Shown in pieces: positions 36,991 through 55,821 of a stretch of 64,000 bases of DNA. This DNA is from Candidatus Curtissbacteria bacterium. Its GTDB lineage: Bacteria > Patescibacteriota > Microgenomatia > Curtissbacterales > GWA2-41-24. A program made the position numbers and the translations under genes. The notes under the pieces were generated by a model. The model had not been told where the DNA came from. It did no database searches and saw only the letters and a program-made list of their open reading frames with translations. The DNA lies in assembly GCA_016183325.1 (NCBI GenBank), contig JACPEV010000008.1, positions 472-64,471 of the forward strand. The letters run 5' to 3'. Every line of letters starts with the position of its first letter. Position 1 is the first letter of the stretch.

Positions 36991-37062
36991 TAGAAATTTT
37001 CCCCAAACAGTTTAGATGCGACTATGTTTAGTTTACCAAATTACTAGGGGGTATTTATTTTT

Positions 37063-37374
37063 TCAGTTTTTTTCAAAACCTAGAGTTTTTGCCTTCTCTT
37101 TTAGAGTTTTGAACGATGATTGTTGGGTTATCTGCACTTTCAGATTAATGTTTTCTATTTCGAGTTTTTCAATTTCCTGATCAATTTGTGATATTTTTTG
37201 GCCATCTGTGGCAAGACTTGCGGCAAAAACCATTTGGGTAGCTAAAACTACCAAGATAATAATTGCAGTAACAACTAAAACTTTGACCTTAACTCTTCCG
37301 ATAAGGTTAATATTTTGATTATTATTCTTAATTTTAAAAGCAAAGTTTTTATCGAAAACTGATATGGGCAGCAT
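37063..37374 (-). CDS. ftsL: FtsL-type septum-formation initiator
   Basis: 103 aa with a TM segment and a coiled coil (EIEKLEIENINLKVQITQ). Positioned between rsmH and ftsI. Confidence 0.6.
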   Translation of the reverse strand: MLPISVFDKNFAFKIKNNNQNINLIGRVKVKVLVVTAIIILVVLATQMVFAASLATDGQKISQIDQEIEKLEIENINLKVQITQQSSFKTLKEKAKTLGFEKN

Positions 37375-37417
37375 ATTGTCAAATTTTCAACAGGCGAAGC
37401 CTGATTGAAATTTGTAT

Positions 37418-38365: not shown

Positions 38366-38763
38366 TTCGTTATTTTAGACAAATTGCTTTGATACTTTTG
38401 CCAACTAGCCTCTTGCCAAATTTCGAAGTGATCACCAGCACCGATAATTACCGGCTTTGAGATCTTTGCGTATGCCAGTAAATTGCCAGGTATAACAAAC
38501 CGGCCCTGATCATCAAGATTGGTACGCTCGGCTGAGGAGAAAAAGAAGCGGCGTATAGAACGGGAACGCCTCTCGGTGAGTGCGCCAGCCAATTGCTTCG
38601 CCGACTCATTCTCCCAAGTCTTTGTGTCGAAGCCGAAAATACATTTTTCAAAACCCAAAGACAGAATAATTTCGCTTGTTGTAAGCTCATCGCGGATTTT
38701 TTTTGGTAAAGCAATTCTTCGAGATTTTAAATCAAATGAAGGTCTGTAGCTGCCCAGAAACAC
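38362..38763 (-). CDS. mraZ: transcriptional regulator MraZ
   Basis: 133 aa with a duplicated MraZ fold. 4-nt overlap with rsmH. Confidence 0.85.
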   Translation of the reverse strand: MFLGSYRPSFDLKSRRIALPKKIRDELTTSEIILSLGFEKCIFGFDTKTWENESAKQLAGALTERRSRSIRRFFFSSAERTNLDDQGRFVIPGNLLAYAKISKPVIIGAGDHFEIWQEASWQKYQSNLSKITK

Positions 38764-40878: not shown

Positions 40879-41487
40879 TTACAGCCTTTCCATTTCTCTA
40901 TTTGCTTGTTCCGGACTAATGCTAGCAATCTGTTGGCTTTCTTTTGTCACGTAAAGGGTATCAGAATCATCGAGAAATTTGAGTTGAGATCTTTCGTATT
41001 TTCCCAGGCCAAGGTATTTGGCAATATCTCCTTCTCGTTGTTTAAATTCTTGGTCTTCAATTCTCAATTCCGGAACGTATGAATTGTTTGTAGGATCAAA
41101 ATATTCTACTTTTAATAATCTGACACAAGCCCCAACGCCGGTTTCATCCTGGGATACGATTAGCGACTGGCAAATCTGCCGCATCGGAGGATTCCAAAAA
41201 TCGCCAGGCTTCATATCGTTCATTGCTCTATACCTGAAACCTACCCTATTTTTTTCAAAAGCTTCAGCTTCGGAAATCCTCACCCGCCTATTGATTCCAA
41301 TAAGAGAGATTACTATTCTGCCATCTTTTGAAAGCTCTTCAGTTAATTTTATGACATTATTTTGGAATAATTGTGACGTTCTTGATTCAGGTGATTTGTC
41401 TTCTGGTCTTTCAGCCATTTTTTCATCCTCTTCCATTCCCGCTGATAAGTTGTCGTCTTGCTTCTCTAATGATATAAGAAAATGCAT
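40879..41487 (-). CDS. hypothetical protein ending in the shared C-terminal tail (ISPEQANREMERL); island gene 6
   Basis: The annotated start overlaps the helicase by 64 nt. Likelier starts are MEEDEK at 41436 or MAERPE at 41418, the latter 5 nt after the helicase stop and preceded by GGAAGAGGA. Confidence 0.5.
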   Translation of the reverse strand: MHFLISLEKQDDNLSAGMEEDEKMAERPEDKSPESRTSQLFQNNVIKLTEELSKDGRIVISLIGINRRVRISEAEAFEKNRVGFRYRAMNDMKPGDFWNPPMRQICQSLIVSQDETGVGACVRLLKVEYFDPTNNSYVPELRIEDQEFKQREGDIAKYLGLGKYERSQLKFLDDSDTLYVTKESQQIASISPEQANREMERL

Positions 41488-44400
41488 TCAACCTATCTTT
41501 GGGCATTCTATCGGTAACTGATAAATCTTGCAAAATCCGAATGCAGAATTCTTCTGCTTGAGGCCAATCCCATCCTGTGATTCTCGAAATTGGTCGGATT
41601 AAGTTTGTCCTGTAATCTCTGAAGTCTTGTATGGAAACTCCTCGTAAGAAATCTAAAATTGAGTTTTCCCTTTTAATAAGGGGTTCACCAGTCAAGATAA
41701 GTTCAACATCTTTATCAGTATCCACACTACGAATCTCTATTTCCGGCTTCTGTGTAGTTGTGACGTTTGGATTATATATTTCAAAGTGATCAAGCTCTAA
41801 ACGGAGCTGTGGCGACGGATAATCTGTTCCAGGACTCTTCCTCACTCTGCGGTTTGCCTTGGGACCTATGCTTAACCAGGCGCGTGAATCAGTAAGTAAT
41901 TCCAAGTCAGACAGGGTTAGACCTTTTAAGTCTACTTCTCCAACTTTTTGCGCCAAAATCGACCATCCAAGGCTTTTCTTGGTGCCGAGCTTACTAATTC
42001 CAATTGCACGCCCGCTATATTCTTGGTCAACCTTAAAACCAAAATGTTCTTCAAGAGCTGCTGTAAATTTTCTGAACTTGTCATCGTCTAAAACTCTTTC
42101 CGGTAAAGTTAGGGAGAAATAACCACTATTTTTAAGGACTCGGTTGCTTTCCCTTAGTATCTTCGTTCTTTCGGAATCTTCTGCCTTCACAGAACCTTTA
42201 TTTGAAAGTGAGGAATAATGTAGAACAAAAGCATTATCCAAAAAGTCATACGTATCATCCCGAGACTCTAGCTCATCGGCTCTTCCGAATTTTGCAGTAC
42301 CACCAAATATTCTTGCTTTTTCCCATCCTACTTGCAAAATATATGGATTAATGTCGACGTTATCAATACCCCTTTTTAGCTTTCTTTGCAGAAGAAGGGT
42401 CCCTGCGCCAACGCTCAAAATTTGACTTTCCTCTTCTGATTTAGTTTTAATCAGATGGCTTACGAAGTCAGCATTATATCCTGTTATATGATACTCATCT
42501 CTTCCTTCATCATAAAATTTAACCGCGATTCTTTGCGGATCTATCTCGTTTGTATGAAACATTTCAAGCGTCCTCTCTGCCCCCGCACCTGTCATGTTAT
42601 GGAAAGCTGTTGAGAGATATAATGAATCTTTGCTTCTAATTTCAATCCTATTCCCAAGTCTTTTAGAATCAAAAAATTCTTGTTGATCTGGATGTAAAAC
42701 AATTCCGGAAAGTGCCATTCTTGAAAGTAGATATGAGTAAACAACTGCTTCACCTTTACCTTGATCAACCATATCTTTAACTTCCAAAACCAGATTTTCG
42801 ACAGGGACAAGTTGTCCTTGTCTTTGCGATCTTCCTACCATCTGTTTTAACTGTTGAAAATGCCAGGGGGGTCCTAAGAAAATTTTTCTTACACCTACAA
42901 TCTCCCTGTCTTGTTCGTCCTTCAGGGCGTTTAATGTGTAATCCCTACTTTGATAGGTGGCTTCAAGCGTGACCAACATAAGCGCAGAACTTGGATTATT
43001 GACCCATCGAGAAATGACAGCTTCCCGCGGCCTTCCCACCCCGATTGTTCCATCTATCATTAATATGTCTTCAGGTGAACATAGACCGCTTACCCAAGAT
43101 TTTAGGAGAGTCATCAACTTAAAATCATTTATCGTATCCAATTCGTAACTTGTATATAAATTTGTTACTGACCCATCCTCTTGATTTATTGCTCGCTGCA
43201 AGACATCACCAGTTCGCCCTTGTCTACGTGAAGGAGAAATAATAAATACTTTGTCTCTAACTATTCTTCCATCTTCTGACTGCCTCCATGTCAACGAATC
43301 CGTGACGAGTCGTTTTAACGTTTTATATTTGGTTGATAACTTCCGACTCATCCAAAATTTTCTTAATTCAGCCAGGTCGGCATCAGAAGAATCTTTGGTA
43401 AGTTCTTCTACTAATGTATCCACTCCATTTTCTAAAAGCTCACTAAAGAAACAGGATAGTACTAAATCTCCCATTCCAATTTCGACTAGTCGATCTGCGC
43501 TTAAAAAATCTTCAGATTTTTGTGGAGAATCTACTCCCTTGAACTCTTTCCATTTGGGAACTATGAGTTTTAATATATTCAAAGTTTCGTCAATATCCAT
43601 TTCCTGAATTTTATCTTTTGCCATTCTTCGAATCTCCACTTTAGTGAGAAGTGGGTTCAGCAATGCATCTTCCAATAACCTAATCTTATTAAGAGGATTT
43701 GTTTGTATGTTGTCTTCAATGAATTGATGCAAATATTCTTCAAAGGGAGATGCTTGAATACTAAAAGGTGTGTATCTGAATTCTTGTACTCCGGTGGCCT
43801 GTTCCCACCTAAACATTCTTTTTTCTCCAATTAATGACATGTATACCAGGTCAGGGCGATTTAAATGGGCATCGCTAAAGGTTTTTCTTCTTGCAGTCGA
43901 AAATTCATGAACAGGAACATATTCAGATGGATATAGAATTGACATAGGCACATTTAAGTTGGCAAGTTTACTTCTGATTGGAGTGGCAGTAAGTCCCAGG
44001 ATCGGCGCATCTTCGTTTCCGGTTCTTTCTTGATAATTTTGACGTATTTTGCCGATTAAATGGAGTAATGCCTTAGAAGAAATTGCATCGTAATTATTGA
44101 AGTTATCAATCTCGTCAATTATTGAAGCGTCTACTTTTGCTGATTTAATTAGGGTTTCCTCAAGCAAAGGAAGCAAATTTGAATCACTTTGCGTGTCTTC
44201 CAGTAATTCTTGGCTAATAACTATATATTTCTTGCCTGAGTTTGCCGCATTTTTCAGCTCACCAGATCCTTTGACAATGTAAACTTGATCCGGATTGGTA
44301 AACGCAACATTTGATTCAATTTCCCATGTTTCTTTCCCTGCTGCTGTTGCAAAAACCAACACTCTTGCAGCATCCGAGTTTTCCATAGCTAGGTAAGCAG

Positions 44401-45394
44401 CGCTAGTTTTTCCAAGTCCCGTATCAGCTGCCAAAAGCCTTGTATTATGCCTTACAAAGTCGTAACAAAATGTTCTCTGTTCAAATGAGGGGAATGGCCT
44501 GGTTTGGTCTTTGACTTGAATTTGGGATTTAAATTCTCCTTTCAGCGGGAAAGTGGCTATATCATAAAATCGTTCGTGAATTTTTTCCAAAAATTGTTTT
44601 TTATCGGGATCTGTGCATTGCTTGATCACCTCTTCAAATTGTTTCATTCCCTCTTGAAGCCCGGCGTCCGTAATACTTCTTGAAAGGCTTTGTTCCAAAT
44701 AATTTTGAACTAAGTTGTATTTAATTGCATATATATTTCTAAAAATTTTCTTGGGGACTCTGTCTATCATGTCAACGATATCCATGTCTCTTTGAGGCAT
44801 AGTTCCAGTAAGAAGTCCAATATAAGGTCTGATAAGAGCAGTGGTTACCCAGGCACGGAGTTCTTCAATTTTTTTGGCATCCGTGACATTCTCGAATAAT
44901 TCCAATGTCATGATTTGACCTACTACCTCTAGAGGCCAACCGGCATCGACAAGCTCTTTGACATTAATATTCTCTGCCAACTTTGTTTCTACGACCTTTT
45001 GCGCTTCTTCATCCTCATGAGTCCCTCGCTTTATATGTCCTTTTTCTACTAGTAAAAGCTGCAAGTCTTCATACAATTCTTTGCCATGTGCTTTAATTTC
45101 TGCTTCTGCTTGCAGGCGTTCCTCATCAGATTTGAGTTGAATTACCATATCATCTCGAGGGATAAAATTCCTGAGAAGGAAAAGGGGGTCTTTTTGTTGC
45201 GCGTATATTCCACCTTCAATAAGCTTTTTCGCATAGTAAAATTTATGTCTAAGACGTGTTGAAGATGCGTAATTAGCTTCAAAAGTGCTACTTCCTTGCC
45301 AGTTTAGAACCCGATCTTCAAAATCGGGTGGTAGGATTATTTCTCCTTGTGGAGCCTCGTTCAGTCTCTCAATCATTAGGACTGATTTTATCAA
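41423..45394 (-). CDS. large SF2 helicase fused to a class I SAM-dependent methyltransferase-like domain (N-terminal ~320-aa unknown domain, C-terminal ~250-aa unknown domain)
   Basis: Helicase motifs I ADTGLGKTS, III LTATP and VI QMVGRSQRQGQ. MTase motifs I ILSVGAGTLLL, II DDTYDFLDNAFVLH and the RVLKNSGYFSL block. The annotated start is TTG; the ATG at 45376 (MIERLNEAPQG) is likelier. Confidence 0.7.
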   Translation of the reverse strand: MIKSVLMIERLNEAPQGEIILPPDFEDRVLNWQGSSTFEANYASSTRLRHKFYYAKKLIEGGIYAQQKDPLFLLRNFIPRDDMVIQLKSDEERLQAEAEIKAHGKELYEDLQLLLVEKGHIKRGTHEDEEAQKVVETKLAENINVKELVDAGWPLEVVGQIMTLELFENVTDAKKIEELRAWVTTALIRPYIGLLTGTMPQRDMDIVDMIDRVPKKIFRNIYAIKYNLVQNYLEQSLSRSITDAGLQEGMKQFEEVIKQCTDPDKKQFLEKIHERFYDIATFPLKGEFKSQIQVKDQTRPFPSFEQRTFCYDFVRHNTRLLAADTGLGKTSAAYLAMENSDAARVLVFATAAGKETWEIESNVAFTNPDQVYIVKGSGELKNAANSGKKYIVISQELLEDTQSDSNLLPLLEETLIKSAKVDASIIDEIDNFNNYDAISSKALLHLIGKIRQNYQERTGNEDAPILGLTATPIRSKLANLNVPMSILYPSEYVPVHEFSTARRKTFSDAHLNRPDLVYMSLIGEKRMFRWEQATGVQEFRYTPFSIQASPFEEYLHQFIEDNIQTNPLNKIRLLEDALLNPLLTKVEIRRMAKDKIQEMDIDETLNILKLIVPKWKEFKGVDSPQKSEDFLSADRLVEIGMGDLVLSCFFSELLENGVDTLVEELTKDSSDADLAELRKFWMSRKLSTKYKTLKRLVTDSLTWRQSEDGRIVRDKVFIISPSRRQGRTGDVLQRAINQEDGSVTNLYTSYELDTINDFKLMTLLKSWVSGLCSPEDILMIDGTIGVGRPREAVISRWVNNPSSALMLVTLEATYQSRDYTLNALKDEQDREIVGVRKIFLGPPWHFQQLKQMVGRSQRQGQLVPVENLVLEVKDMVDQGKGEAVVYSYLLSRMALSGIVLHPDQQEFFDSKRLGNRIEIRSKDSLYLSTAFHNMTGAGAERTLEMFHTNEIDPQRIAVKFYDEGRDEYHITGYNADFVSHLIKTKSEEESQILSVGAGTLLLQRKLKRGIDNVDINPYILQVGWEKARIFGGTAKFGRADELESRDDTYDFLDNAFVLHYSSLSNKGSVKAEDSERTKILRESNRVLKNSGYFSLTLPERVLDDDKFRKFTAALEEHFGFKVDQEYSGRAIGISKLGTKKSLGWSILAQKVGEVDLKGLTLSDLELLTDSRAWLSIGPKANRRVRKSPGTDYPSPQLRLELDHFEIYNPNVTTTQKPEIEIRSVDTDKDVELILTGEPLIKRENSILDFLRGVSIQDFRDYRTNLIRPISRITGWDWPQAEEFCIRILQDLSVTDRMPKDRLNAFSYIIREARRQLISGNGRG

Positions 45395-45413
45395 ATTTAG
45401 CCTATAGTTTCAA
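45385..45413 (-). promoter_or_regulatory. promoter P2 for the helicase gene: TTGAAA-N17-TAAAAT, 8 nt before the ATG (near-leaderless)
   Basis: Minus strand reads TTGAAActataggctaaatttgaTAAAATcagtcctaATG. It is almost identical to P1 at 50852-50880. The shared upstream motif CTAACAAGTGCCTTA is at 45498-45512. Confidence 0.5.
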
Positions 45414-45529
45414 ATCTGAAAAGTGATGTCTGCTCTTCTGTTTGCAAAATCTCAAATTAATTTTACGGTCCATGCTGATCCTTTGCATGATATTTACCTA
45501 ACAAGTGCCTTAGAGAGCATTATTGATTT

Positions 45530-47524
45530 TCATGCCTCTAAAAGCTTTACTAGTTGTTCGTTTGCCTCATCAGGAGAAATTGGTTGTGCTTTATCTCGAT
45601 TATTTTGTTTTTCTATTATTTCAACTATTAGTTGAATCAGCTCAGGAGCGTAGTGCTCAATAGGATGTCCTCCCTGATCGAGGTAAATCTCAAACCATTC
45701 TTGATGATCTTTCCTAAATTCTTTCGCTATCTGATCAATTACTCTTGAATTTTTTTTACGTAAATGATCCATTATGCCTCCTCTTGTCATCCAACCTTCC
45801 GGTGCTCGGCCATATCGTGTGAGCTCTTTGATAATTAACTCTTTCAATTCTGGTGAGTAATGCTCACGAATTCTGCCGTTTGAATCTACATAAAACTGAT
45901 GCCACTCGGGATGATTTTCTTTAAATTTATCGGCTCTATTACCCACAATTAAAGTGCTTCTCTTAATTTCTTTTGCTAAAGCTTCTTTTGTTATCCAGCC
46001 ATCTGGTTGATTTTTAAAGTTTGCGACATGCTCGATAATTAATGCAACGAATTCTGGTGAGTAATAATTATTGGGATGACCAGTCCGACTCAGAAATGTT
46101 TTGAACCAATCCAGATGCTCTTTTTTATATTTTTCTGCTAACCTTTCAACAAATTTCGGCGATTTTTCAACCAGTTCTGCTAAGCGCGCATTTGGGACCC
46201 ATCCTTCAGGAACAATATCGTATTTTGTAAGTTCATTTGTTAAGAAGGATACGAATTCGGGTGAATAATGATCCCGAAGAAACCCATTTCTAGCAACATA
46301 ATTTTTGGCCGATTCCGGATGTTGATCTCCAATTTGTTTAATTAATCTTTCAATAGGCCTCCTGGTTTTTCCTAATCGTTTTGCCAATTCTGTAATCGTT
46401 ATCCACCCTTCAGGTGCTTCGGTACCACCCTTTAATTCTTCTTCGGAAAATTCTATACCCAAAGGACTAAATGCAGATTTGAGGATCTCAAGCCGTAAGT
46501 TTTCGAATGATGGGTGCTCGCGACGAGGATTTCCAAACATTCTGCTGAAGTTCTTTTTTGATCTAACTTTTTCCCTAACGAATTGCTTTGCTTCTTCAAT
46601 TCTTCCTGTAATGACTGTCCCGTCTTTATCTAAGAAGGTTTCTATAAAATCTGGAAATTCTTGCAAAAATATCTCTCTTACGGCTTCAAAAATTTCTTCT
46701 CTATCTCTAGTATGCCAAATCCTCGGGTGAGCAAAATCGCTGTTATTAAATTGTACTCCCCAGGGTTTAAATGCTTTTTTAATAGCAGTTATGTAGCTTC
46801 CCTGGAAATAAGGTACTGCACCTTTTTGAACGGGTGTTCCACCAATAATTTGCGCAAATTTAATCTGATTTCCAATTTTCTCTTTAATAAATTCTTTCGC
46901 CGTTTCTTGGAAATTACTTTTTATTTGTCCATCATCATCTCTTGGAAATAAATCATTAAATTCAGGAAAGTTTTCAAGAAATAATCCTTGAATGTTGCCA
47001 ATGCCTATTTGTTCATTCTCTTCGGTGGTTTTGTCTGGAAATTTCCAGCGAACTTGTCCTATTGCATCTTTTAAAATTATTGGCCTATTTTTATCGCCAT
47101 TTGGTGAAGTATCTTTTGCAATTTCATTTCCTGGTAGCTCAATTCCCCAAGGAGCGAAGGATTTTTTAAAAACAACTAGGTAAGAGCCTTCAAAATATGG
47201 GCAAGATCTCTTATCACAAGCAACTCCAAAAGACATATAAAATTGTCTATTTTTGAAGACGTGGCTAAGTATAAATTCTCTTGCTTGTTCTACCCTGTTA
47301 CCATCAACTTTACCATCCTGATCTCTAAGAAATTGTAAATTAAAATCTGGAAACTTTTCTAGAAAAAGCGCTTGCACATTTCTAATGCCCAGCCGCTCAT
47401 TTTCCTCCAAGGTGTTGCCAGGTAGATGCCAACGTATTCGGCCTCCTCTATCCCTAAGAACTGTTGGCTTAGATATAGGAGAATATTCTGATAGTGACTG
47501 AGGATTTTCTTCTTCTTTTATCAT
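45530..47524 (-). CDS. repeat-rich protein with shared C-terminal tail (…PISPDEANEQLVKLLEA); island gene 4
   Basis: 664 aa. Two N-terminal copies of a ~110-aa 'RDRGGRIRWxLPGN…FLExFPxFN' domain plus a degenerate third. Then four tandem ~68-aa 'PEGW-T…LA…R…HxEW…HYSPE' repeats that look HTH-like. Confidence 0.55.
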   Translation of the reverse strand: MIKEEENPQSLSEYSPISKPTVLRDRGGRIRWHLPGNTLEENERLGIRNVQALFLEKFPDFNLQFLRDQDGKVDGNRVEQAREFILSHVFKNRQFYMSFGVACDKRSCPYFEGSYLVVFKKSFAPWGIELPGNEIAKDTSPNGDKNRPIILKDAIGQVRWKFPDKTTEENEQIGIGNIQGLFLENFPEFNDLFPRDDDGQIKSNFQETAKEFIKEKIGNQIKFAQIIGGTPVQKGAVPYFQGSYITAIKKAFKPWGVQFNNSDFAHPRIWHTRDREEIFEAVREIFLQEFPDFIETFLDKDGTVITGRIEEAKQFVREKVRSKKNFSRMFGNPRREHPSFENLRLEILKSAFSPLGIEFSEEELKGGTEAPEGWITITELAKRLGKTRRPIERLIKQIGDQHPESAKNYVARNGFLRDHYSPEFVSFLTNELTKYDIVPEGWVPNARLAELVEKSPKFVERLAEKYKKEHLDWFKTFLSRTGHPNNYYSPEFVALIIEHVANFKNQPDGWITKEALAKEIKRSTLIVGNRADKFKENHPEWHQFYVDSNGRIREHYSPELKELIIKELTRYGRAPEGWMTRGGIMDHLRKKNSRVIDQIAKEFRKDHQEWFEIYLDQGGHPIEHYAPELIQLIVEIIEKQNNRDKAQPISPDEANEQLVKLLEA

Positions 47525-48871
47525 TCATTCCTCTAAAAACCTTCTTAATTGTTCGTTGGCTTCGTCGGGGGAGATTGAATCCTTTTCTATCTTTTCTTTT
47601 GGTGAATAGTTGCCCCCTTTGAGCGCGTCCATTATATCTTCTTGATTGTAAAGCTCAACAACTTTACCAGAAATGTCGCGACCGGTAATAACATTAATAT
47701 TTCTTCCACGAAGGTGGCGACGCATAGTTGCTGTTTGAAGCCCAAATGATTTTCGAAAATAAAATTGGGGCACCCATGTTTGATTGTTTTCATCGGTGTA
47801 GAGTCCCGTCACCTTATCCACTCGGGGTAAGTTTAAAAATTCGCTGATCTTTTCTGAAGCTTTCGATTCGTCGAAAAGGACTACTTCCGCACCAACCCTA
47901 CTTCTACCTTGTATCTGGGGGACATCAACAAGTAATGATGATAACGAAGTTCCACTAACCTGGAATCTGCTTCGAAGCACTCTTCTAGATACCCAACTGG
48001 AAGTACTGTTTTCTGTATACGAGCCTGTTTCGTTATTTACCCTAGGTAGCAGCAAAAAATTATTTATTTGACTTGTCACTTCGGGCACATTGTAGAGAAT
48101 GGTTTCGTGGCCAACCCCATCTCTGCCAGCTATAGATCGAACTCCTTGCATGAACTTTGATAGTTTTTCAGCACTAAGACCGTGATTAACTTTAAAGTAA
48201 TTAGCAGGGGCCCAACATTCTCCGTCTTCGTTTTGATATTGACCGATTGAACTATCAACTTGCGGGAGCGCAAAAAATTCGTTAATTCTTCTTGAAACTT
48301 CAGCTTCATTGTAGAGTCTAATTTCATGACCTTTAAGACCTACTCCTGCTCTTGATGGAACGCCGATCAAACGTTTAGACAAAGTTGGTCCGTTGATTTT
48401 AAAATTCTTTCTAAAAAAATAGGAGGAGGCCCAATTATTACCGTTTGCGTCCGTCCAGCGAGTTTCCTTATCAACCTTCGGTAAAGAAAGGTCGAGTCCC
48501 CAAGGATTGAAAGATTTTTCTAAAACGAAGTGATATGATCCTTGAAAATACGGGACTGTATTTTTCGAAAAAGGGGATTCTCCTGTTAGAGCAACAAACT
48601 CTTGTCTTTTACCTATTCTATCTAATATAAATTCTTCTGCTTGACCTCTTTTATCCTCTATAATTTTTTCATCTTCGCCCTTGGGGAAAAGTTCATTAAA
48701 CTCTGGATATCTTTCTAAGAAGATTGCTCGAATGTTTTTTATTCCAAGCATTAAGTTCTCTTCTTCAGAGTTGCCTGGAAGCGACCAGCGAATTCTGCCT
48801 CCTTTATCACGAAGAATTGACGGTACTTGGATTTCTTGATTTTGTGTTAGTAATGTTTCTTTTGCCATCAA
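47525..48871 (-). CDS. repeat-rich protein with shared C-terminal tail (…SISPDEANEQLRRFLEE); island gene 3
   Basis: 448 aa. One RDKGGRIRWSLPGN domain, then four ~70-aa 'W…YF-K-F…LS-L…GR-GVG-E…LYNE-EV…I-EFL-LPRV…TG-YT' repeats. The true start ATG overlaps the upstream stop (TGATG). Confidence 0.55.
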   Translation of the reverse strand: MMAKETLLTQNQEIQVPSILRDKGGRIRWSLPGNSEEENLMLGIKNIRAIFLERYPEFNELFPKGEDEKIIEDKRGQAEEFILDRIGKRQEFVALTGESPFSKNTVPYFQGSYHFVLEKSFNPWGLDLSLPKVDKETRWTDANGNNWASSYFFRKNFKINGPTLSKRLIGVPSRAGVGLKGHEIRLYNEAEVSRRINEFFALPQVDSSIGQYQNEDGECWAPANYFKVNHGLSAEKLSKFMQGVRSIAGRDGVGHETILYNVPEVTSQINNFLLLPRVNNETGSYTENSTSSWVSRRVLRSRFQVSGTSLSSLLVDVPQIQGRSRVGAEVVLFDESKASEKISEFLNLPRVDKVTGLYTDENNQTWVPQFYFRKSFGLQTATMRRHLRGRNINVITGRDISGKVVELYNQEDIMDALKGGNYSPKEKIEKDSISPDEANEQLRRFLEE

Positions 48872-49728
48872 TTCTCCAAAAGTCTTTTTAGCTGTTCGTT
48901 AGCTTCGTCGGGGGAAATAGTTGATTCTGCAGGTCTGTAAAGTCTTGTGTCTCCTTTGTGAAATATCCTGCGATCGATTAATTTTTGTTCTCCTTCTTGA
49001 TTAACTAAGAAAATTTCTAAAAATGTATTGCTTTTTTCATCGACTTTTGGTTGAAAAGCTAGCTCTTTTCCGTAAGACGTTCGTATTTCTTTATTATTTA
49101 ATACGACGGCTTTACCTCTAACCATTCCTATATGAAAGCTGTCTGTTCGAGTGAAATTCCACGTCCAAAATTCTTTCAGCATGTGTGGTTCTATCTCTTT
49201 TCTTCCACCGAGGTAATCTAAAAAAATCTGTCTTTCAAAACCATGCCAACTTTCTACTTTTAGGTTTTGAGCGTCAATCCTAAACGATTGAATTAGTTCA
49301 TTAAAATCTACTACATCCCTTAATCCTAATTCGTGGAAATCAATCCATTGATATAATTTATTTTCGTCTTCTCTAGGAAAAGCTAAGATTATTCCGCTGT
49401 TGCGGATAATTTTTTGCGATAATGGATTGAGGCTAAAGATTACTGTCCTTCCTTGAATTCTGCCACCTATGTAAAATCTTGTTCCGACTTTATTATCACC
49501 TCTGGCTTCTTCTATCAAAAACGGTGGAATTTCTTCAAAAGGAAATCTTCCTCTGAGAAAAGCGTGCAGAAAAGCTACGCCCTCCTCCTGGTCTACTGCG
49601 TATATGGGTGAAGGTTTCCATGGATCTGGCTCTACTTGCGAAGGATCAGACCTGTCTCCCAATTCCAAATCTATTATTTTAATGAATCGTTTACTATTGG
49701 GACTTTTTGGTTGCATCTCTGGATTCAT
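48868..49728 (-). CDS. hypothetical protein with shared C-terminal tail (…TISPDEANEQLKRLLEN); island gene 2
   Basis: 286 aa. The upstream gene's final GAGGAA (Glu-Glu) codons form the SD, and its TAA stop overlaps this ATG (TAATG). Confidence 0.5.
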   Translation of the reverse strand: MNPEMQPKSPNSKRFIKIIDLELGDRSDPSQVEPDPWKPSPIYAVDQEEGVAFLHAFLRGRFPFEEIPPFLIEEARGDNKVGTRFYIGGRIQGRTVIFSLNPLSQKIIRNSGIILAFPREDENKLYQWIDFHELGLRDVVDFNELIQSFRIDAQNLKVESWHGFERQIFLDYLGGRKEIEPHMLKEFWTWNFTRTDSFHIGMVRGKAVVLNNKEIRTSYGKELAFQPKVDEKSNTFLEIFLVNQEGEQKLIDRRIFHKGDTRLYRPAESTISPDEANEQLKRLLEN

Positions 49729-50843
49729 TATTCCTCCAAAAGTCTTCTTAACTGTTCATTGGCTTCGTCAGGGGAAATGATTACATCTACCGAATTTTTA
49801 TTTGTGTCACTAAGACCTAGCTTTGCTCTCAAAGCTCTAATACGACCTGGATAAGCTCGAATTGCACCCCATAGGTCATACCTGTTTTTTGCTTGCAATG
49901 CATTTCTTGTAAGTAATCCTTCCTGCTGGAAGAATTCCCAAGCCTCTTTTTCTATTACTTCTGAAGTCCAATATCCTTTCTTCCTTATTAGTCTAATATC
50001 AAGCCCTAGATCTCTTTTTAAGCCTGTCATTTTCCCAGGATAAAATTTACCAATAGCTGTTCTAAGATCGCCCCTTCCTTGCCTAGCTAATAAATTTGTT
50101 GTTAAATGTTCCTCTTCTCCTAAAAAAGCTAAAGCTGCTTTTCGGATTTCTTCTGGGGTCCAGTAATGATATGGCTTTGCAGATGGTCCTAAACCTAAAT
50201 CTTGTTTTAACTGCCTTATTCCACCTGGATAATGTCGTAGGATAGCATTAAGTAAGTCATTTCTATGGCCCTCGAAAAGCAATCGGGCGCTAATTTTTCC
50301 TTCTTGATCTAGAAACCCTTTGGACTCCTCGAAGATCATTTCCTTTGTCCAATAATTTCCAGGTTTTTTAATTATCTTAAGACCAAGATTTCTTCTGAGC
50401 CCCACCATTCCATCTGGATAATATTTAGCTACTGCAGCGACAAAGCTTGATAAGCCAGCTTTTACCAATGTTCGTTGTTTTAAGTCTGAGCCTTCTGTAT
50501 CCAATCTACGACCCTCGTGTTCTATATTGGTTAGCTCCCGCCAGAATCCGGATGGTCTTGATGATGAAGGTACGCCAAGATTCACTTTTAAACCTGAAAA
50601 ACCTCCAGGATAGTAATGAACAATACCATAAAGCAGATCAAACTTTCCTGCACGGCTCAAGTTAACTCTTGTAAGATCATTTCCTTGTTGAATAAATCCA
50701 GTTGCTTCTGCAAGAACAACCGCGCCTAATAATCCTTGATCTTCTAATAACCTCCAACGGATCCTACCTCTATCATCTCGCGGTATGTCAATAGATTGGA
50801 AATCTTCCTCGGTCTTAGTAGCAAAAACAGTTCTTTCAGCCAT
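49728..50843 (-). CDS. repeat-rich protein with shared C-terminal tail (…IISPDEANEQLRRLLEE); island gene 1
   Basis: 371 aa. N-terminal RDDRGRIRW motif, then about five ~68-aa 'L…AI…YPGG…L…LGL…YWT-EEI…F…EG-L' repeats. Confidence 0.55.
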   Translation of the reverse strand: MAERTVFATKTEEDFQSIDIPRDDRGRIRWRLLEDQGLLGAVVLAEATGFIQQGNDLTRVNLSRAGKFDLLYGIVHYYPGGFSGLKVNLGVPSSSRPSGFWRELTNIEHEGRRLDTEGSDLKQRTLVKAGLSSFVAAVAKYYPDGMVGLRRNLGLKIIKKPGNYWTKEMIFEESKGFLDQEGKISARLLFEGHRNDLLNAILRHYPGGIRQLKQDLGLGPSAKPYHYWTPEEIRKAALAFLGEEEHLTTNLLARQGRGDLRTAIGKFYPGKMTGLKRDLGLDIRLIRKKGYWTSEVIEKEAWEFFQQEGLLTRNALQAKNRYDLWGAIRAYPGRIRALRAKLGLSDTNKNSVDVIISPDEANEQLRRLLEE

Positions 50844-50851
50844 GATGAGGA

Positions 50852-50880
50852 ATTTTACAATATTTGGCCTATAGTTTCAA
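50852..50880 (-). promoter_or_regulatory. promoter P1 for the island operon: TTGAAA-N17-TAAAAT, 8 nt before the ATG
   Basis: Minus strand reads TTGAAActataggccaaatattgTAAAATtcctcatcATG. The shared upstream motif CTAACAAGTGGCTTA is at 50947-50961. Confidence 0.5.
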
Positions 50881-50973
50881 GTGGGCCCATGATATTATTA
50901 CTGCCTGTAGTTTATTAAACGAGTATATTACTCGCTTGATAGTTATCTAACAAGTGGCTTACTGAGTAGGCGG

Positions 50974-51180: not shown

Positions 51181-51372
51181 ATGGGAATCATTGATCTAAG
51201 AAGAGTCTTGAAAAATCGTCGTTCCGGGTGGATCTCTATTTCGAAAGACTACAAAAGGGTTATTGCCAAAGACCAAACCTTAGGGGGTCTTGTCAAAAAA
51301 CTGCAAAGGCTTGGCAATCCCGAAGGATATCTTGTCAAGGCAGCGAACGATTATTCCAGATATGTGGGCTGA
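51181..51372 (+). CDS. small partner protein of the retropepsin cassette, copy 2 (divergent)
   Basis: 63 aa (…[19 protein letters not shown]…). It occupies the 3' part of the ORF-track frame 50995-51372. Its stop overlaps the next ATG (TGATG). Confidence 0.4.
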
Positions 51373-51899
51373 TGAAACCTGTTATTTTGCAGCCACCAAT
51401 AAAGATCTGGTATAAAACGCTTCCCGGATTTTCAAAAATCATTTGGCCAATACTTGATATCAAATTGTCTATAAATAGTTTCGTTCTTCCTCAACCTATC
51501 TTTTCGCTTGTAGATTCCGGTGCGAGTATTTCTATAATCCATCCACAGATAGCCGAGATATTAGGATTTGACCGAGAAAGATTAGGCAAATCGCGATCGT
51601 CAGGAAAATCAGCCAGCGGTGATTATAAATCTTGGATTTTACCGAATCTTGTTGAAGTAAATATTTATGGCCATTTGTTTAATTTTAGGTTCGAAGTATT
51701 AGATAATCCAAATCTTATGTGGCCATGTATTTTGGGAGAAGATTCAATCTTTCAAGTTGCCAAGGTTGATTTTTCAAAATTCAGAGGTTATTTTGAATTG
51801 AGGATTAGACTAAAAGAAGATAAATCTAGGAGTTTGGCCGAACTTGCTAAAAACACGTACGGTGCATGGAAAGAACCGGTTAGGAAAATTTCTTCATAA
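51372..51899 (+). CDS. retropepsin-like (clan AA) aspartic protease, cassette 2
   Basis: FSLVDSGASISIIHPQIAEILGFD. Start MKPVIL is coupled to the upstream stop. The ORF-track N-terminus (51228-) is probably not translated. Confidence 0.55.
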   Translation: MKPVILQPPIKIWYKTLPGFSKIIWPILDIKLSINSFVLPQPIFSLVDSGASISIIHPQIAEILGFDRERLGKSRSSGKSASGDYKSWILPNLVEVNIYGHLFNFRFEVLDNPNLMWPCILGEDSIFQVAKVDFSKFRGYFELRIRLKEDKSRSLAELAKNTYGAWKEPVRKISS

Positions 51900-53409
51900 G
51901 AATATTTGCAAGTGTGTCCACTTTTACTCTTTCCTGTTTGGCCGTGTCACGATCCCGGATCGTGACAGTGTCGTTTTCCAAAGTTTCGAAGTCGATGGTG
52001 ATGCAATAGGGTGTGCCGATTTCGTCTTGGGCGAAGTAGCGTTTGCCGATGTTGCCGCGATCGTCCCAAGCAACAGGTTGCAGTAAATGGTGAATGGATA
52101 ATTGTGAATAGAGCAAGCGGGCTTTTTTGACGAGATCGGGTTTATTGGCAAGAAGCGGGAAAACGGCGGCTTTAAAGGGGGCGAGTTTGGGGTGGAGTTT
52201 AAGAATTACTCTCTTTGCTATATCCCCCGAACCCGGTTTGGAGGATTTTTGCAAACCGGGTTCGTCTTTTGCTGGTTCCTCTGTATAAGCATCGATTAAG
52301 AAAAAAAGCGCGGCGCGATCGACTCCTCCCGAAGTTTCGATGATATATGGAAGGTATTTTTTATTTTTCGCAGGCTCAAAATAGGTCATATCGACGCCGG
52401 AATGTTTTTGATGCTGAGACAGATCCCAGTCTCCCCTATTGTGAATTCCTTCAAATTCTTTCCAGCCTCCGCCAGAGGCGGATAGATCGTATTCAATATC
52501 CCAGGCGTCTTTGGCGTAGTGAGCACGCTCGCCTTCTTCGTGCTGACGAAACCTAAGTTTGTCTTTTTTCATTCCGAGCTCCAAGTACCATTTCATGCGC
52601 TCGTTTTTCCAGTATTCGTACCATTTTTCGGATTCTTCCTTTTCTGGTTTGACATAATATTGAAGTTCCATTTGTTCAAATTCACGGGAGCGAAATGTAA
52701 AGTTACCGGGAGTAATTTCGTTTCGGAAGGCCTTGCCGATTTGGGCAATTCCGAAAGGAATTTGGACTCGAGTGGAATCGAGGATGTTTTTGAAATTGAC
52801 ATGGACACCTTGAGTGATTTCACCGCGAAGATAAACTTTTTGTTTGGCGTCTTCAACAACGCCGAGTTTGGCTTCAACAAGGAGATTGAATTTTTTAGGT
52901 TCTGTAAAATTGTGCTCTTTATCTTTGGTGGGATTTTCTACGATTTCTTTAAAATCATGCTTATTTTTACCATCCATGCAGTAAATGAACGGTAAAATTT
53001 CGCTTTGCTCTTGAGATAATGACCAAGAAGTTACATTTGTTGAGATCGAACTTGTCTTTGTAAAAACCATGTGCTTCAATTTCTCTTTTGCTTCTGTAAC
53101 ATTATCAGCCCTGAACCTCTTATGACAAATTTTGCATTCTACAAGTGGATCAGTAAACGCTTTGACATGACCGGAGGCTTCCCAGACTTTGGGATTCATG
53201 AGAATTGCAGTGTCGATGCCCACTACATCGTCCCTACCGTAAACCATCGACTGCCAAAAAGCCTTTTTGATGTTGTTTTTGAGCTCGACTCCGAGAGGAC
53301 CATAATCCCAAGTTCCCCCAAGTCCGCCGTAGATTTCAGAACCGGGATAAATAAAGCCACGACGCTTTGCGAGAGAAACAATTTTTTCTAAATTCGTAAT
53401 TTTATCCAC
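51880..53409 (-). CDS. glyQS: glycine--tRNA ligase (dimeric class II GlyQS type)
   Basis: 509 aa with class II motifs and an anticodon-binding C-terminus. Confidence 0.9.
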   Translation of the reverse strand: MDKITNLEKIVSLAKRRGFIYPGSEIYGGLGGTWDYGPLGVELKNNIKKAFWQSMVYGRDDVVGIDTAILMNPKVWEASGHVKAFTDPLVECKICHKRFRADNVTEAKEKLKHMVFTKTSSISTNVTSWSLSQEQSEILPFIYCMDGKNKHDFKEIVENPTKDKEHNFTEPKKFNLLVEAKLGVVEDAKQKVYLRGEITQGVHVNFKNILDSTRVQIPFGIAQIGKAFRNEITPGNFTFRSREFEQMELQYYVKPEKEESEKWYEYWKNERMKWYLELGMKKDKLRFRQHEEGERAHYAKDAWDIEYDLSASGGGWKEFEGIHNRGDWDLSQHQKHSGVDMTYFEPAKNKKYLPYIIETSGGVDRAALFFLIDAYTEEPAKDEPGLQKSSKPGSGDIAKRVILKLHPKLAPFKAAVFPLLANKPDLVKKARLLYSQLSIHHLLQPVAWDDRGNIGKRYFAQDEIGTPYCITIDFETLENDTVTIRDRDTAKQERVKVDTLANILMKKFS

Positions 53410-55146: not shown

Positions 55147-55821
55147 TTATTCTAGGGTGAGATGTTTGATTATGTTAAGTTTTTGCTGATAGCCGGCTTG
55201 ATCATAAACGAATTTTCTGTAATCTTGAATGGATTTAAAGTAATTTAAAATTACCTGCGTGTTTACAAAGCTTTGAACATTTCCTTCATTTAAATAACTT
55301 CTAAATGACGACCACGGATAGTTATCTAAATCCCCTATTCTGATAATAAAAGCAGACACGGGATTCAAGTGAATATATCTTGAGACATGTAATAATTGTT
55401 CATCATTTTCAATTCTCACTGCTTTGAACATAGATTGAAATAGTGAGCCAGTTCTTTCATTTTTAGTATTAAAGTATTTCGAGCAACTATGCTGAAAGTT
55501 TGTCATAAAATTGGAAATTGATTTTTCCTCTAAAGCTTTTAACAAGAAATGTACATGGTTTGGCATAATACAAAAAGCAATAATTTCTAAGAAAGGTTTA
55601 TAACTTCGTGCTAAATTTTCTAAAAAAACAGCCCTTTGAGCTGCTGGTAATTGTTTATACTTGGAAAACTTTAATGGCGGTTTTGGGTATCGATAAAAAC
55701 TGATAACCTCAAGAGCTCGCTGATAATCCTTTTGGCTTAGAAAAATTGGCTGTTTGGCAATACTTCTGTTAAAAACATGATAAACTTCTCCAGGAACTAA
55801 AGGTATTTTGCGATAAGGCAT
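55147..55821 (-). CDS. IS200/IS605-like Y1 (HUH) transposase of the REP-associated tyrosine transposase (RAYT) type
   Basis: YHVFNRS N-terminus, HUH motif MPNHVHFLL, C-terminal SRYIHLNPV with a candidate catalytic Tyr. 224 aa. Flanked by REP-like inverted repeats. Confidence 0.7.
   Translation of the reverse strand: MPYRKIPLVPGEVYHVFNRSIAKQPIFLSQKDYQRALEVISFYRYPKPPLKFSKYKQLPAAQRAVFLENLARSYKPFLEIIAFCIMPNHVHFLLKALEEKSISNFMTNFQHSCSKYFNTKNERTGSLFQSMFKAVRIENDEQLLHVSRYIHLNPVSAFIIRIGDLDNYPWSSFRSYLNEGNVQSFVNTQVILNYFKSIQDYRKFVYDQAGYQQKLNIIKHLTLE

What the first reader, a model, noticed from the sequence alone, without database searches (positions are those of the whole stretch)
45530..50843. Five otherwise different proteins share one C-terminal peptide, ISPDEANEQL(R/K)RLLEE
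The four consecutive island genes end …ISPDEANEQLVKLLEA, …ISPDEANEQLRRFLEE, …ISPDEANEQLKRLLEN and …ISPDEANEQLRRLLEE. The gene after the helicase (40879-41487) ends …ISPEQANREMERL. Their upstream bodies differ in length and repeat content, at 664, 448, 286, 371 and 202 aa. The tail is conserved at nucleotide level, including synonymous positions (ttggcttcgtcgggggagat versus ttagcttcgtcgggggaaat). Its last Glu-Glu codons (GAGGAA) double as the Shine-Dalgarno for the next gene, and the stop overlaps the next ATG (TAATG or TGATG). A short acidic amphipathic C-terminal peptide appended to different proteins resembles docking tails that recruit partners to one hub. Known examples are the SSB C-terminal tip and EEVD-TPR pairs. 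The untagged helicase-MTase in the same operon is the obvious hub candidate. A C-terminal degron or secretion tag are alternatives.
Basis: seen in the sequence. Interest (0 to 1): 0.85.

Follow-up and report, generated by a model that had tools for sequence, protein, structure and literature searches.

The report
Shared docking helix on helicase-partner proteins
In an uncultured Candidate Phyla Radiation bacterium, every protein encoded beside a large SNF2-type motor/methyltransferase ends in the same short helix, which most likely plugs these interchangeable partners into the motor; no such system has been described.

Summary
Four consecutive minus-strand genes (A-D, 45530-50843) end in ISPDEANEQL[RKV][RK][LF]LE[EAN]. 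The small gene after the helicase (E) ends in ISPEQANREMERL. Chance expectation is zero.

The peptide is a self-capped amphipathic helix on a disordered linker. It is under strong protein-level selection: 9 of its 10 invariant codons differ synonymously among the four copies, so it is not recent gene conversion.

In 13 related loci from Candidate Phyla Radiation (CPR) Microgenomates metagenomes, 12 carry the tail on cassette proteins. None of 237 ORFs shows it outside a cassette, and the helicase never carries it. All 22 homologues of gene A keep it.

Each lineage has its own tail "dialect": ANEQLRRLLEE, ANEELMRFLEV, ANxYLRxLVxGE, AQEDLWKLLEV or INQKMSAILQFLE. All proteins of one locus share it, including the unrelated small protein.

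The "helicase" has an SNF2-family translocase fold fused to a generic class I methyltransferase. Its N-terminal ~120 residues follow the tail dialect rather than the phylogeny of its core.

Best reading (about 0.5): the tail docks interchangeable helical-repeat adaptors onto the motor. Binding itself is untested and the system's function is unknown. Corrections: the bodies are not all unrelated, and E starts at 41418.

The parts
49728..50843 (-). Gene A, 371 aa. It has an N-terminal box PRDDRGRIRW, five ~62-aa four-helix repeats (PxGYWTxExIxxEA...YPGGxxxLxxxLG), a disordered linker and the tail.
   Evidence: AF2 model: pLDDT 84.5, linker 348-355 below 50, tail 358-370 helical with pLDDT ~84. 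All 22 homologues carry a tail.
49731..49778 (-). Tail of A: ISPDEANEQLRRLLEE. The last codons GAG GAA form the Shine-Dalgarno for gene B, and the stop overlaps B's ATG (TAATG).
48868..49728 (-). Gene B, 286 aa. Its body has no detectable similarity to A, C, D or E. It carries the tail but no N-box.
48871..48918 (-). Tail of B: ISPDEANEQLKRLLEN
47525..48868 (-). Gene C, 447 aa from the ATG at 48868. It has the N-box and a ~130-aa N-module shared with D, four ~75-aa repeats of a second type, and the tail.
   Evidence: P0034 is 447 aa. P0041 is a homologue with the same repeats and tail.
47528..47575 (-). Tail of C: ISPDEANEQLRRFLEE. The stop is followed directly, in frame, by D's ATG.
45530..47524 (-). 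Gene D, 664 aa. It has two to three copies of the N-module, five ~68-aa repeats of a third type (PEGWxT...HYSPE, weak HTH hits) and the tail.
   Evidence: P0039 is a homologue with the same repeats and tail.
45533..45580 (-). Tail of D: ISPDEANEQLVKLLEA. D is the last gene of the upstream transcription unit and no gene follows it.
50852..50966 (-). Promoter-like region of the A-D unit: TTGAAA-17-TAAAAT at 50880-50852, plus a conserved upstream box at 50934-50966.
45385..45517 (-). Paralogous promoter-like region of the helicase-E unit: the same -35/-10 at 45413-45385, plus the same upstream box at 45485-45517.
41423..45376 (-). SNF2-family ATPase fused to a class I methyltransferase, 1317 aa, with no tail. 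This is the proposed hub.
   Evidence: Pfam DEAD, ResIII and Methyltransf_11. phrog_62, E 2e-21. AF2 pLDDT 80.5. Foldseek top hits are all Snf2-family remodelers (BAF, SMARCAD1, ISWI, Chd1, CSB, Rad54, Mot1, RapA), E 5e-13 to 4e-10, probability 1.0. The tail motif is absent from 30 of 31 homologues; the one match is a chance hit.
45017..45376 (-). Helicase residues 1-120, the candidate tail receptor. This is the only region whose similarity follows tail dialect instead of the phylogeny of the core.
   Evidence: This is an inference from co-variation. The region was not included in the AF2 model.
41927..42559 (-). Methyltransferase domain, residues ~940-1150. It has the SxGAGT SAM-binding motif and is Methyltransf_11-like. 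Its substrate is unknown.
   Evidence: Best PDB sequence relatives are YcgJ, 3sm3, a cap-N7 MTase and a Trm1-like tRNA MTase, all at E >= 0.02.
41426..41662 (-). C-terminal helical bundle, residues ~1239-1313, tethered by two disordered linkers. This is the second candidate docking domain.
   Evidence: helices at model residues 1122-1196 preceded by segments with pLDDT below 50; only 6-13% identity in the partner-less homologue P0030.
40879..41418 (-). Gene E, 179 aa. A small protein (invariant GAC and REGD motifs) encoded immediately after the helicase in 11 of the 12 partner-bearing loci read to their 3' end (L017 is cut off; L018 has a 700-aa tail protein in that position). It carries its own tail.
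40882..40920 (-). Tail of E: ISPEQANREMERL

Best explanation
The peptide is a short linear docking helix. It consists of a Ser-Pro-Asp/Glu-Glu N-cap followed by an amphipathic helix whose invariant Ala, Asn, Leu, Leu/Phe and Leu/Val/Ile lie on one face. It hangs on a flexible linker at the end of a set of otherwise variable helical-repeat proteins and of one small conserved protein.

All of these proteins are encoded in one cassette with a tail-less SNF2-type DNA translocase fused to a class I methyltransferase. The tail most likely plugs each protein into one common site on that motor. The best candidate site is its N-terminal ~120 residues, so the repeat proteins would act as interchangeable adaptors or targeting subunits.

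Shown here:
- the tail exists and is selected at the protein level;
- it is exclusive to the cassette;
- each lineage has its own tail version, shared by all its cassette proteins;
- the motor has an SNF2 fold.

Inferred:
- physical binding to the motor;
- the location of the binding site;
- the adaptor role.

Unknown:
- what the motor-methyltransferase does. A role in mobile-element conflict is possible.
For: 1. Exclusivity. In 12 loci with 237 ORFs of at least 100 aa, 40 carry the C-terminal motif. All 40 lie in the cassette, on the helicase strand. A tail profile searched against 1.84 billion representative proteins gave 14 C-terminal hits: the window's four plus 10 others. All belong to this mosaic family. 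Degenerate DNA scans of 185,579 species genomes, of the JGI metagenomes and of IMG/VR found the tail only in one other CPR lineage's cassette.

2. All 22 homologues of A end in a tail variant. Both tested long contigs place the homologue directly upstream of a ~1285-aa helicase-MTase and a ~175-aa small protein. The same holds for the P0054 contig and L017.

3. Protein-level selection. In the window, 9 of 10 invariant codons differ synonymously and none non-synonymously. In L001, L009 and L017 the figure is 6 of 7.

4. Lineage dialects are shared by non-homologous proteins of one locus, including the small protein. Partial Mantel for upstream tails versus the small-protein tail, controlling for helicase core distance: r = 0.58, p = 0.003.

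5. The helicase never carries the motif.

6. Helicase residues ~26-120 are as similar or more similar between Q-type lineages of two helicase clades (31% core identity) than between Q- and Y-type lineages of one clade (55% core identity). Everywhere else the reverse holds by 0.2-0.4. Partial Mantel for tails versus the N-terminal domain: r = 0.54-0.66, p <= 0.002. For the core r is ~0 and for the MTase it is negative. A third N-terminal type (P0027) was predicted to go with a new dialect, and it does: TPEEINQKMSAILQFLE.

7. AF2 places the tail as a confident helix after a linker with pLDDT below 50. The helix is amphipathic, with hydrophobic moment 0.45-0.65.
Against: - No binding test was possible.
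- The co-variation rests on about 11 loci and probably only 2-4 independent dialect switches. The N-terminal alignment is gappy.
- The tail is 16/16 identical between lineages whose helicases are ~31% identical in the core. A very conserved external partner could explain this equally well.
- A helicase homologue without adjacent partners (L012, P0030) keeps a Y-like N-terminus but has lost the C-terminal bundle. That points to a different site.
- Two loci lie in or beside type IV secretion genes, which leaves a translocation-signal reading open.
Confidence: 0.5

Rival explanations
1. The tail is recognised by a partner encoded outside the cassette. One option is a type IV secretion coupling protein, which would make the tail a translocation signal that sends the proteins into a recipient or host cell. 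Another is a conserved housekeeping hub.
For: In L013 the cassette sits inside a conjugative element, between a VirB4/TraC/pilin operon and the relaxase, coupling protein and serine recombinase. The P0054 contig starts with a TrbC pilin gene divergent from the cassette. T4SS signals are typically C-terminal (my own knowledge). The tail is 100% conserved across lineages with 31%-identical helicases. SNF2-methylase dyads are linked to DNA transfer (PMC5512222).
Against: Most loci, including the window, L001, L004, L007/8, L009, L010, L011 and L014, show no T4SS genes within 10 kb. The tail is a structured acidic helix rather than a disordered basic or Glu-block signal. Dialects differ between lineages and track the helicase N-terminus. 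By MurE identity, the Y-type host is no more distant from the window's host than an E-type host is.
Confidence: 0.15
2. The tails bind one another, or bind the basic N-terminal box RDxRGRIRW of the next protein. They would form a helical bundle or a head-to-tail chain that assembles all cassette proteins into one complex without a dedicated site on the helicase.
For: A second conserved short motif sits at the N-terminus of most tail proteins. It is basic and the tail is acidic. In Y-type loci some proteins carry a tail-like motif at the N-terminus as well: ADLYLHNLVYGD in L002 and EADTYLHNLVYGD in L010. Uniform within-locus dialects are also expected for self-association.
Against: B and E have no N-box but keep the tail. 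Loci with a single upstream protein still keep tails on it and on E. A 13-residue helix is short for a stable bundle. This model does not explain why the helicase N-terminus follows the dialect.
Confidence: 0.15
3. The tail is a C-terminal degron, or an encapsulation peptide for a protein shell.
For: It resembles in form the bacterial microcompartment encapsulation peptides: a ~18-aa amphipathic helix on a linker, borne by several proteins of one operon (PMC4594438).
Against: In relatives the tail is followed by 0-6 variable residues (EVQR, GAK, KDE, RDNES, GEDVNE). Recognition therefore does not depend on the free C-terminus, as ssrA-type degrons do. The precomputed Pfam calls for all loci list no BMC shell or encapsulin genes.
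Confidence: 0.05
4. The repeat is a nucleotide-level feature, such as translational-coupling or ribosome-binding sequence or recent gene conversion between paralogues, with no peptide function.
For: The last two tail codons do provide GGAGGA or GAGGAA 4-5 nt before the next start codon in A/B, B/C and C/D.
Against: Synonymous sites vary freely while amino acids stay fixed. D and E keep the tail with no downstream gene. The peptide is conserved in loci where the next start lies further downstream. It is also shared by non-homologous genes.
Confidence: 0.03

Closest known systems
Bacterial microcompartment encapsulation peptides (and encapsulin cargo-loading peptides)
   Same: A short (~15-18 aa) amphipathic helix at a protein terminus, separated from the body by a poorly conserved linker. 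It is carried by several functionally different proteins of one operon and directs them to one common protein assembly (PMC4594438, PMC11157265).
   Different: No shell or capsid-like gene is present in any of the loci examined. The candidate receptor here is an ATPase motor. The sequence motif A-N-x-x-L-x-x-L-hydrophobic with an SPDE cap is unrelated.
Substrate-receptor logic of cullin-RING ligases (F-box/SOCS-box), cellulosomal dockerin-cohesin pairs, and PKS/NRPS docking domains
   Same: Many proteins with variable repeat or binding domains share one small constant module that plugs them into a hub. In dockerins and PKS docking domains the pairs are lineage-specific (my own knowledge).
   Different: Those modules are 40-70-aa domains, or are paired N-/C-terminal helices between consecutive enzymes. 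Here the module is a single ~13-residue helix. The resemblance is functional only, with no homology.
SWI2/SNF2 ATPase-DNA methylase dyad of phages, plasmids and conjugative elements (archetype P1 DarB; "polyvalent proteins", Iyer et al. 2017, PMC5512222)
   Same: An SNF2-family translocase is fused to a methyltransferase. The window protein hits phrog_62 at E 2e-21. Two loci lie in or beside conjugative elements.
   Different: The methyltransferase is a generic Methyltransf_11-type class I domain, not the adenine methylase of the dyad. It lies C-terminal to the ATPase. There are no tblastn relatives in 50,697 phage or 72,556 plasmid records, nor in IMG/VR. The array of tail-bearing partners is not described for the dyad.
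SSB C-terminal tip, Hsp70/Hsp90 EEVD-TPR pairs, beta-clamp-binding motif
   Same: Short acidic or hydrophobic C-terminal peptides that mediate docking.
   Different: SSB and EEVD have the opposite topology: one tail and many partners. They depend on the free carboxylate, whereas this tail tolerates 0-6 extra residues. The clamp motif QL[SD]LF needs a Gln that is replaced by Y, W, E or D in other dialects.

Membership tests
SNF2 (SWI2/SNF2) family ATPase (the "helicase") | Two RecA-like lobes with SF2 motifs (GxGKT, DExx, TAT/SAT, QxxGRxxRxGQ) | tested here: met
   Invariant TGLGKT, DEID, LTATP and QMxGRSxRQGQ in 28 homologues. Weak Pfam DEAD and ResIII hits. SNF2-rel_dom and Helicase_C are recorded for the L017 homologue.
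SNF2 (SWI2/SNF2) family ATPase (the "helicase") | SNF2-specific fold with helical insertions in both lobes, closest to remodeler ATPases | tested here: met
   The top 50 Foldseek PDB hits are all Snf2-family proteins (BAF/Brg1, SMARCAD1, ISWI, Chd1, CSB, Rad5, Rad54, Mot1, Ino80, RapA), E 5e-13 to 4e-10, probability 1.0, on a model with pLDDT 80.5.
DNA methyltransferase (N6-adenine, N4-cytosine or C5-cytosine) | A match to DNA-MTase families (N6_Mtase, N6_N4_Mtase, MethyltransfD12, DNA_methylase) or a (D/N/S)PP(Y/F/W) catalytic motif after strand 4 | tested here: not met
   Only generic class I families hit: Methyltransf_11, _25 and _12 and Ubie. PDB relatives are non-DNA MTases at E >= 0.02. 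The invariant D-x-N-P lies only 17 residues after motif I, which is not the motif IV position.
SNF2-adenine methylase dyad / polyvalent proteins of mobile elements | SNF2 fused or adjacent to the dyad-type adenine methylase (+LPD36), carried on a phage, plasmid or conjugative element | tested here: inconclusive
   phrog_62 hit at E 2e-21 over residues 164-480. Two loci lie in or beside conjugative elements. However, the methylase type does not match, no relatives were found in the phage, plasmid or IMG/VR collections, and most loci are chromosomal, often within the division/cell-wall (dcw) cluster.
Bacterial microcompartment encapsulation peptide | A terminal amphipathic helix on a linker, shared by several proteins of one locus | tested here: met
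Bacterial microcompartment encapsulation peptide | Shell proteins (BMC-H PF00936, BMC-P PF03319) encoded with the cargo | tested here: not met
   The Pfam lists for the genes of the 13 related loci contain none. None was found among the window ORFs scanned.
Free-carboxylate C-terminal motifs (SSB tip, EEVD-TPR, ssrA-like degron, PDZ ligands) | The motif must be the extreme C-terminus | tested here: not met
   In L001, L007/8, L009, L010, L011 and L017 the helix is followed by 2-6 variable residues.
Beta-clamp-binding motif | QL[SD]LF or QLxLxL with a conserved Gln and a hydrophobic end | tested here: not met
   Gln is replaced by Y, W, E, D or K in other dialects. The invariant residues are Ala, Asn and Leu at other spacings.
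Known anti-phage defence systems (PADLOC-DB 2.0) | A significant match of any cassette protein to a defence-system model | tested here: not met
   Only marginal hits: mad2 at E 0.002 on the MTase and mad1 at E 0.01 on an HTH.
Type IV secretion substrate signal | A C-terminal signal recognised by a coupling protein, with translocation shown experimentally | not testable with these tools
   Context only: T4SS genes lie beside 2 of the 14 loci examined.

The most novel reading that the evidence does not exclude
CPR Microgenomates carry an undescribed modular machine. An SNF2 DNA translocase-methyltransferase reads a lineage-specific "zip-code" helix through its N-terminal domain and so accepts 1-9 interchangeable helical-repeat adaptor proteins plus one constant small subunit. 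This would be a prokaryotic counterpart of remodeler or cullin-type hub-and-adaptor logic. It may serve a new defence, anti-defence or chromosome-handling function on a cassette that moves between the division/cell-wall (dcw) cluster and conjugative elements.
Probability: 0.35. Interest if true: 0.8.

Novelty: new variant of a known kind. Interest (0 to 1): 0.66.

Why it matters
If the tail does dock onto the SNF2-methyltransferase, three things follow.

- It would be a compact, natural, orthogonal set of peptide-receptor pairs. At least five dialects exist, which could be useful as protein-assembly tags.
- It would be the first clue to how a widespread but unannotated Microgenomates cassette is organised. 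None of the tail proteins has any Pfam, NCBIfam, PHROG or PADLOC assignment.
- It would extend the hub-and-interchangeable-adaptor principle to a bacterial SNF2 motor. That principle is known from eukaryotic remodelers, cullin ligases, cellulosomes and microcompartments.

It also gives a concrete, cheap experiment for proteins from organisms that cannot be cultured: test a tail peptide against helicase residues 1-300.

Tried and rejected
- **Tail-only profile, 5.8-billion word-indexed database.** It found no candidates, even though the genome is in that database. This is an index limitation, not absence. The HMMER scan of representatives worked.
- **Phage or plasmid origin.** No tail and no helicase relative in IMG/VR, INPHARED phages or PLSDB.
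- **Family assignment of A, B, C and E.** Nothing in Pfam, PHROGs, PADLOC or NCBIfam. D gives only sub-threshold HTH hits.
- **Fold of the A-type repeat.**
  - The PDB profile search and Pfam scan of 47 repeat units found nothing.
  - Foldseek against the PDB gave no hit below E 0.05.
  - afdb50 was unavailable.
- **Small protein E.** No PDB relative.
- **C-terminal helical bundle of the helicase as the receptor.** It is attractive because it is tethered by disordered linkers and is lost in the partner-less P0030. However, its distances follow phylogeny and do not track tail dialect significantly (partial r 0.26, p 0.08). I keep it as a second candidate.
- **Tail dialect tracking host relatedness.** The MurE comparison does not support this, but the data are thin.
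- **Read-through polyprotein idea.** C and D are in frame across one TGA, but the other junctions are out of frame, so I rejected it.
- **Clamp-binding, EEVD, SSB-tip and degron analogies.** Rejected; see the membership tests.
- **Chimeric helicase-linker-tail AF2 run.** Not attempted.

Full report
**What is in the window**

Between purF (39026-40621) and a glycyl-tRNA synthetase gene (51880-53409) lie six co-oriented minus-strand genes.

Genes A (49728-50843), B (48868-49728), C (47525-48868) and D (45530-47524) form one tightly coupled unit. After a 135-nt gap come a 1317-aa helicase-methyltransferase (41423-45376) and a small gene E (40879-41418).

A-D end in ISPDEANEQL followed by [RKV][RK][LF]LE[EAN]. 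E ends in ISPEQANREMERL. The back-translated pattern occurs four times in the window and never in 100 shuffles. No other copy exists in any frame of the 64 kb.

The helicase equals an NCBI protein from a Candidatus Curtissbacteria genome, a Microgenomates member of the Candidate Phyla Radiation (CPR). The two transcription units have paralogous promoter regions, with the same TTGAAA-17-TAAAAT and the same upstream box.

- E starts at 41418, not 41487.
- The helicase starts at its seventh codon.
- With the tails removed, C and D share a ~130-aa N-terminal module (45% identity, duplicated in D). A, C and D share an N-terminal RDxxGRIRW box. B and E match nothing.
- The tail therefore sits on at least four unrelated bodies, but the set is a mosaic family rather than five unrelated proteins.
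- The tail is not conserved at synonymous sites. Nine of the ten invariant codons occur in two or three synonymous forms among the four copies, with no amino-acid change.
This may explain the terminal acidic residues but not the helix core.

**The tail is a selected peptide, conserved elsewhere and confined to this cassette**

I retrieved 13 related loci through helicase homologues or gene A homologues, and three extra fragments through DNA pattern scans. In 12 of them, one to nine tail-bearing genes accompany a 1283-1350-aa helicase-MTase. A 170-227-aa small protein that also carries a tail follows the helicase in every such locus read to its 3' end, except L018.

- Of 237 ORFs of at least 100 aa in 12 loci, 40 carry the C-terminal motif. 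All 40 are cassette genes.
- The helicase itself never carries it.
- All 22 detectable homologues of A end in a tail variant.
- An HMMER scan of 1.84 billion representative proteins with a tail profile found only members of this family with the motif at the C-terminus, plus two unrelated proteins with internal repeats.
- Pattern scans of 185,579 species genomes, the JGI metagenomes and IMG/VR found the exact peptide in only one other CPR lineage, again inside a cassette.

**Anatomy of the peptide**

The core shared by all lineages is A-[N/Q]-x-x-[L/I/M]-x-x-[L/F/I]-[L/V/I]. It is usually preceded by an S/T-P-D/E-E/Q helix N-capping box.

On a helical wheel the invariant residues fall on one face, and the hydrophobic moment is 0.45-0.65. 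In the AF2 model of A (pLDDT 84.5) the tail is a helix (residues 358-370, pLDDT ~84) after a linker with pLDDT below 50.

In relatives the helix is followed by 0-6 variable residues. Recognition therefore cannot depend on the free C-terminus.

**Lineage dialects**

Each lineage has its own version, shared by all its cassette proteins:

| Dialect | Loci |
|---|---|
| SPDEANEQLRRLLEE | window, L001, L007/8, L014 |
| ANEELMRFLEV | L009 |
| ANFELAKLIEE | L013 |
| EANxYLRxLVxGE | L002, L010, L011 |
| ANEWLQNLL | L004 |
| AQEDLWKLLEV | L017 |
| DEA[NT]L[DE]LDKLL | P0050, P0054 |
| TPEEINQKMSAILQFLE | L018 |

The small protein has an unrelated body, yet it follows the local dialect. The partial Mantel test against helicase core distance gives r = 0.58, p = 0.003.

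Within L001, L009 and L017, six of seven invariant tail positions carry synonymous differences among paralogues. The uniformity is therefore maintained by selection, not by recent conversion. Uniform within a genome and divergent between genomes is the pattern expected for ligands of one co-evolving receptor.

**What the hub candidate is**

The "helicase" has invariant SF2 motifs. Its AF2 model (residues 118-1317, pLDDT 80.5) matches only Snf2-family remodeler ATPases at the top of a PDB fold search: BAF, SMARCAD1, ISWI, Chd1, CSB, Rad54, Mot1, Ino80 and RapA, with E 5e-13 to 4e-10. It is thus an SNF2-type double-strand DNA translocase rather than a strand-separating helicase.

The methyltransferase is a generic class I domain (Methyltransf_11/25). 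It has no DNA-methylase signature, and its nearest solved relatives are weak and are not DNA enzymes. Its substrate is open.

After the MTase come two disordered stretches and a small helical bundle.

**Where the tail might dock**

Two leads emerged.

1. *The C-terminal bundle.* The one homologue without adjacent partner genes (L012, P0030) keeps 30-60% identity along the protein but only 6-13% in the last ~120 residues.

2. *The N-terminal ~120 residues.* The helicases fall into two deep clades with ~31% core identity, and the Q-type tail occurs in both. Within clade I there are both Q-type and Y-type lineages, at ~55% core identity.
   - Along nearly the whole protein, Q-type clade I is 0.2-0.4 more similar to Y-type clade I than to clade II. 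In residues ~26-120 this reverses or vanishes.
   - There is a visible dialect-specific signature: LQLLLVEKGxIKxGSxEDxDAQ versus LHFLLIxKGxLPPxSxxxExSER.
   - Partial Mantel tests give r = 0.54-0.66 (p <= 0.002) for the N-terminal regions, 0.26 (p = 0.08) for the C-terminal bundle, and about zero or negative for the core and MTase.
   - As a prediction test I picked a helicase with a third kind of N-terminus (P0027). Its partner carries a new dialect.

This evidence is suggestive, not proof. It rests on few independent switches and a gappy alignment. The N-terminal 117 residues were outside the structure model.

**Bodies and context**

The cassette is found in different places:
- in or beside the division/cell-wall (dcw) cluster: the window, L007/8 between ftsA and ftsZ, L009, and L010 between ftsI and murE;
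- beside an integrase (L002);
- inside a conjugative element, between the T4SS operon and the relaxase/coupling protein (L013);
- beside a TrbC pilin gene (P0054 contig).

The cassette thus behaves as a movable module. This fits the known association of SNF2-methylase dyads with DNA transfer and conflict (PMC5512222). However, no relatives exist in the phage, plasmid or viral collections searched, and no defence-system model matches.

**Verdict**

The interpretation as a docking tail for the untagged helicase-methyltransferase is the best-supported model (about 0.5) but is not demonstrated.

Rivals that remain:
- an external receptor such as a T4SS coupling protein (0.15);
- tail-tail or tail-N-box self-assembly (0.15);
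- a degron or encapsulation signal (0.05);
- a purely nucleotide-level explanation (0.03, essentially excluded).

In kind, this is a terminal docking helix like microcompartment encapsulation peptides or dockerin-type modules. The peptide, its partners and an SNF2 motor as the likely hub are undescribed, so I rate it a new variant of a known kind.

Noticed in passing
window 45385-45517 and 50852-50966 (minus strand): The regions upstream of the helicase and of gene A are paralogous. They have an identical -35/-10 (TTGAAA-17-TAAAAT) with the flanking CTATAGGC[CT]AAAT, plus a second conserved box (CACTTGTTAG[GA]TAA.TATCA) ~70 nt further upstream. The box could be a shared regulator site.
   Followed up: partly
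window 47522-47530: Genes C and D are in the same reading frame and are separated only by one TGA stop directly followed by ATG. The other junctions overlap out of frame.
   Followed up: partly
window 51228-51899 (+) and 55147-55821 (-): A retropepsin-like aspartyl protease ORF lies next to the cassette promoter (gag-asp_proteas, E 2e-5, below the Pfam cut-off). An IS200-like Y1 transposase lies 4 kb further on. No link to the cassette was established.
   Followed up: no
L007/L008, L009, L010; window 35245-38763: The cassette is repeatedly inserted in or beside the division/cell-wall (dcw) cluster at different junctions: ftsA|ftsZ, ftsI|murE, before murE, and near mraZ. Whether this reflects function or an insertion preference is unknown.
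   Followed up: partly
L013 1-21305; contig of P0054: In L013 the cassette lies inside a conjugative element with VirB4-like, TraC-like, pilins, relaxase, coupling protein and serine recombinase genes. In the P0054 contig it is divergent from a TrbC pilin gene.
   Followed up: partly
L007, L013, L014 versus window (helicase genes): The helicase family has two deep clades with only ~31% identity in the ATPase core but the same length and architecture. The word-indexed protein search returned only clade I, so the family is larger than the 31 hits.
   Followed up: partly
L002 8214-9998; L010 4199-6076: In Y-type loci the first partner protein also carries a tail-like motif near its N-terminus (ADLYLHNLVYGD and EADTYLHNLVYGD), in addition to the C-terminal copy.
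   Followed up: no
L018 5705-7807: In this lineage the tail-bearing repeat protein (700 aa) is encoded downstream of the helicase and overlaps its stop. No upstream partner is on the contig.
   Followed up: no
L013 9897-10004; L009 6543-7451: L013 has a 35-aa ORF that consists only of the N-terminal box (PRDSRGRIRW), probably a gene remnant. L009 has a separate class I methyltransferase gene inserted antisense within the partner array.
   Followed up: no
protein P0038 (612 aa): An unrelated protein carries about a dozen internal repeats of [IV]SPEEANKYDKRF followed by a kinase-like C-terminal region. The same SPEEAN capping motif appears here in a different setting.
   Followed up: no
L007/L008 (CAYIRD010000001.1): The contig is labelled "uncultured Gammaproteobacteria", but it encodes FtsZ 64% and FtsA 54% identical to the Curtissbacteria window, together with the CPR cassette. 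It is probably mis-binned.
   Followed up: partly
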